The notes under the pieces are model-generated. The model searched no databases. It was given only the letters and a program-made list of their open reading frames with translations, and was not told where the DNA came from. From contig CAZBJI010000014.1 in NCBI GenBank assembly GCA_964492175.1, positions 301-52,830 on the forward strand: a stretch of 52,530 nt of DNA, in the 5' to 3' direction. The position numbers were made by a program, and so were the translations under genes. Positions 46,948-48,306 of this stretch are shown in pieces (position 1 is the stretch's first letter; each line of letters opens with the position of its first letter). This DNA is from an uncultured Polyangiaceae bacterium (lineage in GTDB: Bacteria > Myxococcota_A > Polyangia > Polyangiales > Polyangiaceae).

Positions 46948-48306
46948 GTGGATACGGCGAACGAGACCGTTCGGGTCAACCCGACGGACTCCCGCGCCGA
47001 AGCGCGAGAGTTCGGCGGCGCCCCTGGCGCGCTCGCGATCATGATCGGATCGCACGCGCTGATCTACTACCTGTGGGTCGCGCAGACCCACTACGGCGGG
47101 GCGCTGATCGGCCCGACGGCCGTCAGCGACGTAGCGCCGTTCCTGCGGACCTTGGCCCGCCACGTCGCCGAGGGCGCCGCGCCCACGTGGACGGCGGCGG
47201 GCCTCTACTTCGGCTTCCTCGGCGTCCAGCTGCTCTTCGCGTTCGTCCTCCCCGGCGTGAGGGTCAAGGGCTTGCCGGTGCCTACCGAGGGCGGCGTCCA
47301 GCACGAGTATCTCTGCAACGGCGCGTGGTCCTGGTACGCGACGCTGGGCCTCGGCGCCGTGTTGCACACGACGGGCGCGCTGCCGCTGCAGACCTTCGCC
47401 CAGCACCTCGGGCCCATCGTCACCGTGGCGGTCGTGTTCACGAACGCGGTCGCGGTGGCGGCGTACGCGATCACGGTGCGGCGCGGCAAGACGACGCGGA
47501 TGACGGGCAACGTCGTCTACGACTTCTTCATGGGCGCGGTGCTCAACCCACGCGTCGGTCGGGTGGATCTCAAGTTCTTCACCGAGATCCGCGCCTCCTG
47601 GATGCTCTTGTTCCTCTTCACGGCGTCCGCCGCCGCCGAGCAGCACGCGCAGACCGGGCGGCTCTCGGGGTCGATGATCTTCCTCCTCGTCGCGCACGGC
47701 CTCTACACGAACGCCGTGATGAAGGGCGAGGAGTGCGTCCCCACCACCTGGGACGTGTTCCACGAGAAGTGGGGCTGGATGCTGGCGTTCTGGAACATGG
47801 TGGGCGTGCCCATCGTCTACAGCTTCAACGCGTTCTACCTGCTCCGGCGGCCGGAGGTGGATCTGCCCGTCGCGGCGCTGGTGGCGCTCTACGTCGCGCT
47901 GTTCGCCGCGTACTACGTCTGGGACACGTCGCAGAGCCAGCGCAACCGCTTCCGCATGATGCGCCGCGGGACCTACGTCCCGCGCAAGACGTTCCCACAG
48001 CTGCCGTGGGGCACCTTGCGAGAGCCGAAGGCGATGCAGACGCGCGCCGGCAGCGAGCTCCTCGTCGACGGCTGGTGGCGCTACGCGCGCAAGCCTCACT
48101 ACACGGCCGACATCGTGATGGCGCTCACGTGGGGGCTCTGCTGCGGTCTGTCGGGCGTGCTCCCCTACCTCTACCCGGCGTTCTTCCTGGTGATGATCCT
48201 CCACCGCGCCGCGCGAGACGAGGCGCGCTGCCGGAGGAAGTACGGAGAAGACTGGGACCGGTACCGCGAGGCGGTCCCTCACCGCTTCATCCCCTACGTC
48301 TATTGA
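46948..48306 (+). CDS. sterol reductase, ERG4/ERG24 family (7-dehydrocholesterol reductase / delta14- or delta24-sterol reductase-like)
   Basis: 452 aa polytopic membrane protein. The C-terminus has the family signature [27 protein letters not shown]...[50 protein letters not shown], which contains the sterol reductase family motifs. Confidence 0.85.
   Translation: [452 protein letters not shown]

What the first reader, a model, noticed from the sequence alone, without database searches (positions are those of the whole stretch)
46948..48306. ERG4/ERG24-family sterol reductase in a bacterium
The C-terminal signature [27 protein letters not shown]...[20 protein letters not shown] is the hallmark of eukaryotic sterol C14/C24(28)/C7 reductases and of lamin B receptor. 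Only a minority of bacteria make or modify sterols, mainly some myxobacteria, methanotrophs and Planctomycetes. A complete sterol reductase here suggests sterol tailoring beyond cyclisation. Under the established eukaryotic pathway logic, the product could be a delta7-, delta14- or delta24-saturated sterol. The adjacent genes (a CoA-binding protein and a Cys-rich lipoprotein) are not obviously pathway-related, so the rest of the pathway is elsewhere.
Basis: partly seen in the sequence, partly recalled or inferred. Interest (0 to 1): 0.6.

Follow-up and report, generated by a model that had tools for sequence, protein, structure and literature searches.

The report
ERG4-type sterol side-chain reductase, myxobacterium
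This is an intact gene for a membrane enzyme that most likely saturates the C-24(28) double bond of sterol side chains; it sits alone in the genome of a Polyangia myxobacterium, belongs to a bacterial group already known from Coxiella, and does not by itself show that the organism makes sterols.

Summary
Window 46948-48306 (+) encodes an intact 452-aa ERG4/ERG24-family protein (Pfam PF01222, 425 bits, full length).

The model is confident (pLDDT 90) and superposes on the solved sterol reductase 4QUV (TM 0.79/0.90).

That is now resolved.
- The protein groups with yeast ERG4 and Coxiella CBU1206/Stmp1, apart from ERG24, TM7SF2, MaSR1 and DHCR7 (200/200 bootstraps).
- It keeps all 34 family-invariant residues.
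- It has the ERG4-type residue at all 11 clade-discriminating positions.
- It is 56% identical to CBU1206, which complements yeast erg4Δ.

About 20% of bacterial relatives sit beside a sterol C-24 methyltransferase, which makes the ERG4 substrate.

The inference of sterol tailoring beyond cyclisation is not established.
- The 52-kb window holds no other sterol gene, and the neighbourhood is not conserved.
- The clade is scattered across unrelated phyla, including sterol-scavenging Coxiella.

The source is a Polyangia myxobacterium, where sterol synthesis is sparse. The rest of the genome could not be retrieved.

This is a new member of a known kind and of modest interest.

The parts
46948..48306 (+). 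CDS of the ERG4-type sterol C-24(28) reductase (452 aa, GTG start, stop at 48304-48306)
   Evidence: ORF. PF01222 at 424.7 bits, full length. 4QUV at E = 5e-72 by sequence and TM 0.79/0.90 by structure. In the ERG4 clade in 200/200 bootstraps. Native codon usage.
46939..46943 (+). GGAGG ribosome-binding site, 4 nt upstream of the GTG start
   Evidence: Read directly from the sequence. It supports the annotated start. Homologue alignments begin at about residue 15-20.
48049..48123 (+). Sterol-reductase signature block, residues 368-392 ([25 protein letters not shown]). It contains R381, K382, H384, Y385 and D388.
   Evidence: G368, L371, G375, R381, Y385 and D388 are conserved family-wide. K382 and H384 are the ERG4-type states, where the delta14/delta7 clades have H and N. 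H384 aligns with MaSR1 N359, an NADPH-phosphate contact (alignment; PMC4951196).
48202..48303 (+). C-terminal signature block, residues 419-452 ([34 protein letters not shown]). It contains R420, R423, D424, K431, Y432, W436 and Y439.
   Evidence: All of these are family-wide conserved columns and all are retained. R420 aligns with MaSR1 R395 and human LBR R583, an NADPH-pocket residue whose mutation lowers NADPH affinity (PMC4951196).
46432..46884 (+). Context only: upstream co-directional CoA_binding_2 protein (150 aa), 63 nt before the reductase
   Evidence: PF13380 at 5.4e-28. It has no homologue next to the reductase in any of the 22 related loci fetched by then, so no conserved linkage.
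45789..46400 (+). Context only: Cys-rich predicted lipoprotein (203 aa, signal peptide ending in LLAC)
   Evidence: Translation and lipobox. No Pfam hit. Not conserved next to relatives.
48401..49096 (+). Context only: downstream co-directional 231-aa protein with an internal duplication (…LEGSWGNGASADDGGAWIF… / …LEGTWGHGESADDGGAWTF…)
   Evidence: Translation. No Pfam hit. Not conserved next to relatives.

Best explanation
The gene encodes a functional, integral-membrane, NADPH-dependent sterol reductase of the ERG4 type. It is an orthologue of Coxiella burnetii CBU1206/Stmp1.

By analogy with ERG4 and the MaSR1 structure, the C-terminal half binds NADPH. The enzyme saturates the exocyclic C-24(28) double bond of a 24-methylene or 24-alkylidene sterol side chain by protonation followed by hydride transfer, giving a 24-alkyl sterol.

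In this Polyangia myxobacterium it is a compositionally native, stand-alone accessory gene, not part of a sterol gene cluster. Its substrate must come from one of two sources. Either a sterol C-24 methyltransferase encoded elsewhere in the genome makes it, acting on self-made or acquired sterol. Or it is taken directly from eukaryotic prey or the environment.

Shown here: gene integrity, family, fold, clade, residue conservation, native codon usage, lack of sterol genes within 52 kb, and methyltransferase linkage in some relatives.

Inferred: the catalytic activity, the C-24(28) specificity and the origin of the substrate. Given the chemistry, I put roughly 45% on a self-made sterol nucleus and 55% on acquired sterol.
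For: - Family and fold: PF01222 full length at 424.7 bits. 4QUV at E = 5e-72. Model pLDDT 90.2, and Foldseek on 4QUV gives E = 2e-23 and TM 0.79/0.90.
- Verified references: blastp gives CBU1206 55.7% / 526 bits, yeast ERG4 41.8% / 334 bits, ERG24 202 bits, TM7SF2 186 bits and DHCR7 162 bits. The reference sequences were verified by exact look-up.
- Phylogeny: in the NJ tree, query + CBU1206 + ERG4 separate from ERG24/TM7SF2/MaSR1/DHCR7 in 200/200 bootstraps.
- Residues: 34/34 family-conserved columns are kept and 11/11 discriminating columns are ERG4-type.
- Experimental anchor: CBU1206 complements yeast erg4 deletion (PMC5418226, PMC8787468).
- Genomic linkage: sterol methyltransferase genes (PF08498; 35-45% identical to verified ERG6) lie beside ERG4-type relatives in 8 of about 39 distinct bacterial loci. 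One of these, L024, is an SMT - Rieske/KshA_C - reductase - P450 cluster at 59% identity to the query. Another, L028, is the Walker Lake SMT-ERG4 pair listed by Brown et al. 2023.
- Native gene: CAI-like 0.766 against 0.733 +/- 0.062 for the window, and GC3 0.949 against 0.925 +/- 0.030.
Against: - No biochemical test exists for this protein or for any member above 56% identity.
- No sterol methyltransferase or any other sterol gene lies in the 52-kb window.
- None lies next to the closest relatives at 60-67% identity.
- None lies next to any of the four other myxobacterial relatives.
- The physiological substrate of CBU1206 in Coxiella is itself unknown (PMC8787468).
- The NADPH-contact Asn of MaSR1 is His here, although that is the ERG4-type state shared with the functional yeast and Coxiella enzymes.
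- The tree is distance-based with limited named eukaryotic sampling.
Confidence: 0.7

Rival explanations
1. It reduces the delta24(25) double bond of C27-type sterols (desmosterol, zymosterol, lanosterol). That would do the job of DHCR24 or of the myxobacterial GGR-family Bsr in a de novo cholesterol-type pathway.
For: Polyangia include cholesterol producers such as Minicystis rosea and Sandaracinus amylolyticus (PMC12004948). The neighbouring gene's best named hits are from these groups. There is no methyltransferase nearby to supply a 24-methylene substrate. Older surveys lumped ERG4 and DHCR24 together as 'C-24 reduction' (PMC4919349).
Against: ERG4 and DHCR24 are non-homologous, and ERG4 acts on delta24(28) (PMC2817430). 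No evidence was found that CBU1206 makes cholesterol during infection (PMC8787468). Cholesterol-producing myxobacteria are reported to use DHCR24-type ('canonical') or Bsr reductases (PMC12004948). No named cultured myxobacterium appears among the 120 best homologues. Methyltransferase linkage in relatives points to 24-alkylidene substrates.
Confidence: 0.12
2. It is a ring-double-bond reductase (delta14 like ERG24/TM7SF2/MaSR1, or delta7 like DHCR7) of a de novo sterol pathway. The first reader allowed for this.
For: It is in the same Pfam family and has the same fold as the delta14 reductase 4QUV. Myxobacteria that demethylate at C-14 need a delta14 reductase (PMC8237579).
Against: The ERG4 clade separates from all delta14 and delta7 references in 200/200 bootstraps. 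All 11 discriminating residues are ERG4-type. Bit scores to ERG24, TM7SF2 and DHCR7 are about half that to ERG4. Distinct delta14/delta7-like bacterial paralogues exist and are only 37% identical to the query (L017, L018, and the second gene in L003).
Confidence: 0.06
3. It acts on a non-sterol isoprenoid or other lipid alkene, and the sterol annotation is carried over from eukaryotes.
For: Relatives occur in phyla with no reported sterols, including Chloroflexota, Gemmatimonadota, Vicinamibacteria, Nitrospinota and Frankiales MAGs. Most loci have no sterol gene nearby.
Against: The only tested bacterial member modifies yeast sterols (PMC5418226). Bona fide sterol methyltransferase genes (PF08498) recur next to the reductase in exactly those phyla (L004 Chloroflexota, L008 Vicinamibacteria, L003 Frankiales). 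All family-wide residues are conserved.
Confidence: 0.08
4. It is an inactive relic or a contaminating eukaryotic fragment.
For: It stands alone with no pathway partners in 52 kb.
Against: The ORF is full length with all 34 conserved positions intact. GC3 and codon usage match the host contig. It has a bacterial RBS and no introns. Its neighbours are typical Polyangia genes on the same 76-kb contig.
Confidence: 0.03

Closest known systems
Coxiella burnetii CBU1206 / Stmp1 (Q83CC1), delta24 sterol reductase
   Same: It is in the same bacterial subclade of the ERG4 orthogroup (187/200 bootstraps excluding yeast ERG4). Identity is 55.7% over 449 aa. It has the same ARKxHYTAD and C-terminal motifs. 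Both are stand-alone genes without the rest of the pathway nearby. The Coxiella enzyme complements yeast erg4 deletion (PMC5418226).
   Different: The host here is a free-living, large-genome Polyangia myxobacterium, not an obligate intracellular pathogen. Coxiella is known to lack sterol synthesis (PMC8787468), whereas this genome's status is unknown. This protein has no experimental data.
Saccharomyces cerevisiae ERG4, C-24(28) sterol reductase
   Same: Same orthogroup, at 41.8% identity and 334 bits over the full length. They share clade-specific residues. The presumed chemistry is the same: NADPH-dependent reduction of the 24(28) methylene.
   Different: ERG4 is the last step of a complete ER-located ergosterol pathway that includes ERG6. 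Here no pathway partner lies within 52 kb.
MaSR1 of Methylomicrobium alcaliphilum (PDB 4QUV), delta14 sterol reductase
   Same: Same Pfam family and fold: E = 5e-72 by sequence and TM 0.79/0.90. The NADPH-pocket Arg is conserved (MaSR1 R395 = R420 here).
   Different: It is in a different orthogroup with a different predicted regiospecificity. Structural alignment gives 35% identity. MaSR1 N359 is His384 here.
Bacterial SMT-ERG4 gene pairs and clusters in metagenomes (Brown et al. 2023, PMC10070321, Supplementary Data 1)
   Same: The Walker Lake reductase (contig Ga0114946_10008497 = L028) is 58% identical to the query. The same clade is also paired with a sterol methyltransferase in L004, L008, L011, L023/L024, L037 and L053.
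   Different: In the window the reductase has no methyltransferase, Rieske oxygenase or P450 partner.
DHCR24 and the myxobacterial GGR-family reductase Bsr (PMC12004948)
   Same: [quoted passage not shown]
   Different: They are non-homologous FAD-dependent soluble or peripheral enzymes acting on delta24(25). The query matches only PF01222.

Membership tests
ERG4/ERG24 sterol reductase family (Pfam PF01222) | Full-length match to the family profile above the curated threshold | tested here: met
   424.7 bits against a cutoff of 27, covering profile positions 3-432 of 432.
ERG4/ERG24 sterol reductase family (Pfam PF01222) | Polytopic all-helical membrane fold of the solved member MaSR1 (4QUV) | tested here: met
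   AF2 model with pLDDT 90.2 and pTM 0.90. Foldseek top hit is 4quv_A at E = 2e-23, TM 0.79/0.90.
ERG4/ERG24 sterol reductase family (Pfam PF01222) | Conserved C-terminal NADPH-pocket residues (MaSR1 N359 and R395, equivalent to LBR N547 and R583) | tested here: met
   R420 aligns with R395. Position 359 is His384, the state in 88% of ERG4-type sequences, including the functional yeast ERG4 and CBU1206. All 34 family-wide conserved columns are retained (PMC4951196).
ERG4/ERG24 sterol reductase family (Pfam PF01222) | NADPH-dependent reduction of a sterol C=C bond | not testable with these tools
   Requires an enzyme assay or complementation.
ERG4 orthogroup (C-24(28) sterol reductases) | Monophyly with yeast ERG4 to the exclusion of ERG24/TM7SF2/FK-type and DHCR7-type members | tested here: met
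   NJ tree with 200/200 bootstraps for the split. Reference sequences were verified by exact look-up.
ERG4 orthogroup (C-24(28) sterol reductases) | Clade-specific residue states (for example W282, N283, G286, D326, K382, H384) | tested here: met
   11 of 11 discriminating columns carry the ERG4-type residue.
ERG4 orthogroup (C-24(28) sterol reductases) | Delta24(28) reductase activity (rescue of erg4 deletion) | not testable with these tools
   Shown in the literature only for the 56%-identical CBU1206 (PMC5418226, PMC8787468).
ERG4 orthogroup (C-24(28) sterol reductases) | Availability of a 24-methylene sterol substrate (a sterol C-24 methyltransferase in the same genome, or uptake) | tested here: inconclusive
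   There is no ERG6 homologue in the 52-kb window. The rest of the genome is not retrievable. A methyltransferase is adjacent in about 20% of relatives.
De novo bacterial sterol biosynthesis gene cluster | Co-location with oxidosqualene cyclase, squalene monooxygenase, CYP51, SdmA/B or other sterol genes | tested here: not met
   None was found among the window ORFs. None is present next to the myxobacterial relatives L006, L010, L016 and L019.
Delta14 (ERG24/TM7SF2/LBR/MaSR1) and delta7 (DHCR7) reductase orthogroups | Grouping with the respective reference sequences | tested here: not met
   Excluded in 200/200 bootstraps. Bit scores are 162-246 against 334-526 for ERG4-type references.
Isoprenylcysteine carboxyl methyltransferase (NCBIfam NF040696) | Score above the curated cutoff | tested here: not met
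   20.8 bits against a cutoff of 160, on the C-terminal 90 residues only.
Steroid 5-alpha-reductase (SRD5A) | Best sequence or structural match to SRD5A members | tested here: not met
   No Pfam hit. Foldseek on 7c83 and 7bw1 gives TM 0.34 and 0.31, with E = 0.016 and 0.066.

The most novel reading that the evidence does not exclude
This free-living Polyangia myxobacterium also carries a cyclase and a sterol C-24 methyltransferase elsewhere in its genome. It would then use this reductase to make saturated 24-alkyl (ergostane- or stigmastane-type) sterols de novo. The stand-alone gene would be one copy of a horizontally mobile bacterial 'side-chain editing' module (SMT plus ERG4-type reductase, sometimes with a Rieske oxygenase and a P450) that is spread over many phyla. 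That would add free-living bacteria as potential sources of C28/C29 sterane biomarkers, which are usually read as eukaryotic.
Probability: 0.2. Interest if true: 0.6.

Novelty: new member of a known kind. Interest (0 to 1): 0.3.

Why it matters
Side-chain-alkylated steranes (ergostane, stigmastane) are used as eukaryote-specific molecular fossils. Functional bacterial sterol methyltransferases were reported only recently (PMC10070321). An ERG4-type reductase performs the step that turns their 24-methylene products into saturated 24-alkyl sterols. Finding an intact, compositionally native copy in a Polyangia myxobacterium adds a concrete, testable candidate. So does finding that about a fifth of its bacterial relatives sit beside a sterol methyltransferase. 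On its own, though, the gene is an already-annotated enzyme type with a characterised bacterial orthologue. It does not show that the organism makes sterols.

Tried and rejected
1. Source genome: exact-product look-ups for the reductase and for a neighbouring protein on the same contig found no record. The species-representative genome scan found no identical locus. The rest of the genome therefore could not be searched for a cyclase or a methyltransferase.

2. Contrast control: I expected the distant delta14-like paralogues L017 and L018 to lie in sterol clusters. They do not, so the contrast says nothing.

3. Naming the 50%-identity representatives to see whether the bacterial clade nests inside eukaryotes: nine of ten were unnamed singletons, and only Diplonema papillatum was identified. 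The direction of transfer is left open.

4. Promoter and terminator scan around the gene: nothing above shuffled expectation. A sigma-70 consensus is a poor model for a 72% GC myxobacterium, so no operon call was made.

5. Conserved synteny: none of ten window neighbours has a homologue beside the reductase in the 22 related loci fetched by then. A later scan of all window proteins against 65 loci found only one weak coincidence. A molybdopterin oxidoreductase next to the SMT-reductase pair in L028 is 65% identical to window 1044-3266. That identity level is not taxon-specific.

6. The primary paper on CBU1206 (Gilk 2010, PMC2981196) is not held. The complementation result is cited from later open papers by the same group.

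7. The isoprenylcysteine methyltransferase and steroid 5-alpha-reductase readings were rejected on scores.
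Full report
**1. Observation.** The + strand carries an ORF from a GTG start at 46948 to a stop at 48304-48306. Third-position GC is 0.95 in a window of about 72% GC, the pattern of real genes here. A GGAGG motif sits 4 nt upstream of the start. Pfam PF01222 (ERG4_ERG24) matches end to end at E = 5e-127, 424.7 bits.

**2. Family and fold.**
- The only NCBIfam hit is a sub-threshold match of the last 90 residues to isoprenylcysteine O-methyltransferase, at 20.8 bits against a cutoff of 160.
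- The best solved relative is the delta14 sterol reductase MaSR1 (4QUV) at E = 5e-72 over residues 20-452.
- An AlphaFold2 model built on 40 homologues has pLDDT 90.2 and pTM 0.90. It superposes on 4QUV with TM 0.79/0.90 at E = 2e-23.
- Steroid 5-alpha-reductases reach only TM 0.31-0.34.

**3. Which double bond?** I recalled the sequences of yeast ERG4, yeast ERG24, human DHCR7, human TM7SF2 and, later, yeast ERG6 from memory. Each was verified by exact-sequence look-up, and all were found under those names.

| Reference | Identity to query | Bit score |
|---|---|---|
| Coxiella delta(24(24(1)))-sterol reductase (cluster contains Q83CC1_COXBU) | 55.7% | 526 |
| Yeast ERG4 | 41.8% | 334 |
| MaSR1 (phmmer) | not computed | 246 |
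| Yeast ERG24 | 29.4% | 202 |
| Human TM7SF2 | 34.8% | 186 |
| Human DHCR7 | 28.3% | 162 |

- I built a neighbour-joining tree of 135 sequences: close hits, 50%-identity representatives, and the references. It places the query, the Coxiella protein and yeast ERG4 on one side of a long internal branch. ERG24, TM7SF2, MaSR1, DHCR7 and two 37%-identical bacterial paralogues fall on the other side.
- That split appears in 200/200 bootstrap replicates. A bacterial subclade holding the query and the Coxiella protein, but not yeast ERG4, appears in 187/200.
- All 34 columns conserved in at least 93% of the family are retained in the query.
- All 11 columns that discriminate the ERG4-type clade from the rest carry the ERG4-type residue. 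One example is ARKPHYTAD where the delta14/delta7 enzymes have ARHxNYxGD.
- MaSR1 R395 (human LBR R583, an NADPH-pocket residue) corresponds to R420. MaSR1 N359 (LBR N547) corresponds to His384, the normal ERG4-type state (PMC4951196).

The literature treats ERG4, DHCR7 and ERG24/FK as separate orthology groups with separate functions (PMC2817430). It also reports that CBU1206, the delta24 homologue of Coxiella, complements yeast erg4 deletion (PMC5418226, PMC8787468).

**4. Source organism.** The product is in the protein collection as a single NCBI sequence from a 76,327-bp contig, with no name. Exact look-ups of its encoding contig failed, and no identical locus is among the species-representative genomes.

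A molybdopterin oxidoreductase from the same contig (window 1044-3266) has these best named hits:
- Polyangia bacterium, 74%
- Polyangiaceae MAGs, 70-73%
- Minicystis rosea, 72%
- Sandaracinus sp., 70%

The window also carries a Ser/Thr kinase, FG-GAP and TPR proteins and a type VI secretion VgrG module, which fits a myxobacterium. The reductase has native composition, with CAI-like 0.766 against 0.733 +/- 0.062 and GC3 0.949 against 0.925 +/- 0.030. It is neither a contaminant nor a recent arrival.

**5. Context.**
- None of the roughly 40 ORFs in the window matches a cyclase, squalene epoxidase, P450, Rieske oxygenase or sterol methyltransferase family. tblastn with verified ERG6 finds nothing in the window.
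- The immediate co-directional neighbours have no homologue beside the reductase in any related locus. These are the Cys-rich lipoprotein at 45789-46400, the CoA_binding_2 protein at 46432-46884, and a 231-aa repeat protein at 48401-49096.
- The closest relatives (60-67% identity) and the four other myxobacterial loci also lack sterol genes within up to 10 kb. The myxobacterial loci are a Myxococcales MAG (L019), a Sandaracinaceae MAG (L010) and two Polyangiales MAGs (L006, L016).

**6. The wider clade.** Relatives at 50-60% identity occur in MAGs labelled Rickettsiales, Gemmatimonadota, Frankiales, Chloroflexota, Alphaproteobacteria, Vicinamibacteria, Nitrospinota, Chlamydiae and Coxiellaceae. 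This patchy distribution is typical of horizontal transfer.

- A Pfam survey of 80 flanking ORFs found six class-I methyltransferases. Three of them carry the sterol-methyltransferase C-terminal domain. It also found two Rieske proteins.
- Across all 65 fetched loci, an ERG6 homologue lies beside the ERG4-type reductase in 8 of about 39 distinct bacterial loci: L003 (weak), L004, L008, L011, L023/L024, L028, L037 and L053. This is a lower bound, because many contigs are short.
- L024 (59% identity to the query, 71% GC) has SMT, then a Rieske/KshA_C oxygenase, then the reductase, and a P450.
- L028 is the Walker Lake contig for which Brown et al. list an SMT-ERG4 pair.
- No cyclase family appeared in any flank survey, with the caveat that only the 25 top families are shown.

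The methyltransferase makes the 24-methylene product that ERG4 reduces. This linkage is independent genomic support for the C-24(28) assignment.

**7. What it does not show.**
- The characterised orthologue works in Coxiella, which lacks the rest of the sterol pathway (PMC8787468).
- A chlamydial MAG with a functional SMT also lacks other sterol genes (PMC10070321).
- Sterol genes in Polyangiaceae and Sandaracinaceae have 'a sparse distribution' (PMC12004948).
- No named cultured sterol-producing myxobacterium is among the 120 best homologues.

The gene is therefore not evidence of de novo sterol synthesis, and absence of a cyclase would not refute the enzyme assignment. I estimate the odds of a self-made versus an acquired sterol nucleus at roughly 45:55. 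The decisive test is a search of the complete genome, which I could not run.

**8. Mechanism, most likely.** This is a polytopic inner-membrane enzyme whose C-terminal half binds NADPH; R420, R423/D424, K431/Y432 and His384 are all retained. It reduces the exocyclic 24(28) double bond of 24-methylene or 24-alkylidene sterols by protonation and hydride transfer.
- Shown: integrity, family, fold, clade, residues, native composition, isolation from sterol genes, and methyltransferase linkage in relatives.
- Inferred: activity, substrate and physiological role.

**9. Novelty and score.** Bacterial ERG4 homologues have been known since 2009 in Coxiella and Plesiocystis (PMC2817430). One is characterised, public pipelines already name this clade 'delta24(24(1))-sterol reductase', and SMT-ERG4 pairs are listed in a 2023 supplement. 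This is a new member of a known kind. Its modest interest lies in the link to bacterial 24-alkyl sterols and sterane biomarkers. Interest is 0.3.

Noticed in passing
window 19516-22062 (+): An 848-aa protein resembles the eukaryotic major vault protein. Pfam gives MVP_shoulder at 5e-25, Vault_3 and Band_7. phmmer hits solved MVP chains at E of about 4e-17, collinear (query 472-761 against MVP 466-784) and of similar total length. A 189-aa ORF with no Pfam hit overlaps its stop (22059-22628).
   Followed up: partly
window 25182-31923 (-): A type VI secretion spike module: VgrG (29575-31923), a DUF2169 + pentapeptide-repeat protein (26895-29558) and DUF3540 (25182-25832).
   Followed up: no
L024 7618-13239 (near-identical to L023): A metagenome contig with 71% GC carries a compact sterol-modifying cluster: sterol methyltransferase (PF08498), a Rieske/KshA_C oxygenase, an ERG4-type reductase 59% identical to the query, and a divergent P450. 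No cyclase is visible in the fetched flank.
   Followed up: partly
L003 10001-17011 (Frankiales MAG JAOPUZ010000077.1): An actinobacterial MAG holds an ERG4-type reductase, an SMT-like methyltransferase (35% to ERG6 over 220 aa) and a second family member 45% identical to human TM7SF2, all within 7 kb. This recalls the two-reductase set of Coxiella.
   Followed up: partly
L010 9165-9842; also L027 228-905, L030 90-767, L031 4345-5022: An approximately 225-aa ORF lies immediately upstream of, and divergent from, the ERG4-type reductase in these four loci. L010's is a VTT/DedA-domain protein. A pooled survey found the VTT domain in three flank ORFs without saying which, so the other three are assigned by size and position. 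The window has no equivalent. A possible lipid-handling partner.
   Followed up: no
L048-L051 (also L060, L064): Metagenome loci where the match to the 452-aa query spans about 1850 nt, so they probably contain introns and come from eukaryotes. They still reach 54-55% identity in the best segment. Some eukaryotic ERG4s are thus as close to the query as the bacterial ones, which bears on the direction of transfer.
   Followed up: no
L001, L007: MAGs labelled 'uncultured Rickettsiales bacterium' have 72-73% GC in these loci. That is unusual for Rickettsiales and suggests a doubtful taxonomic label.
   Followed up: no
P0195, P0196 (50%-identity representatives): The two best representative hits are 646 and 623 aa, with an unexplained N-terminal extension of about 180-200 residues ahead of the ERG4-type domain. 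Both are unnamed metagenomic singletons.
   Followed up: no
window 48401-49096 (+): A 231-aa protein with a signal-like N-terminus and an obvious internal duplication (…RLEGSWGNGASADDGGAWIFTR… / …SLEGTWGHGESADDGGAWTFVRR…). It has no Pfam family.
   Followed up: no
L028 1638-3860 (-) and window 1044-3266 (-): The Walker Lake SMT-reductase pair lies next to a 740-aa molybdopterin oxidoreductase that is 65% identical to the one in the window, 44 kb from the reductase. This is probably coincidence, since that identity level is not taxon-specific.
   Followed up: partly
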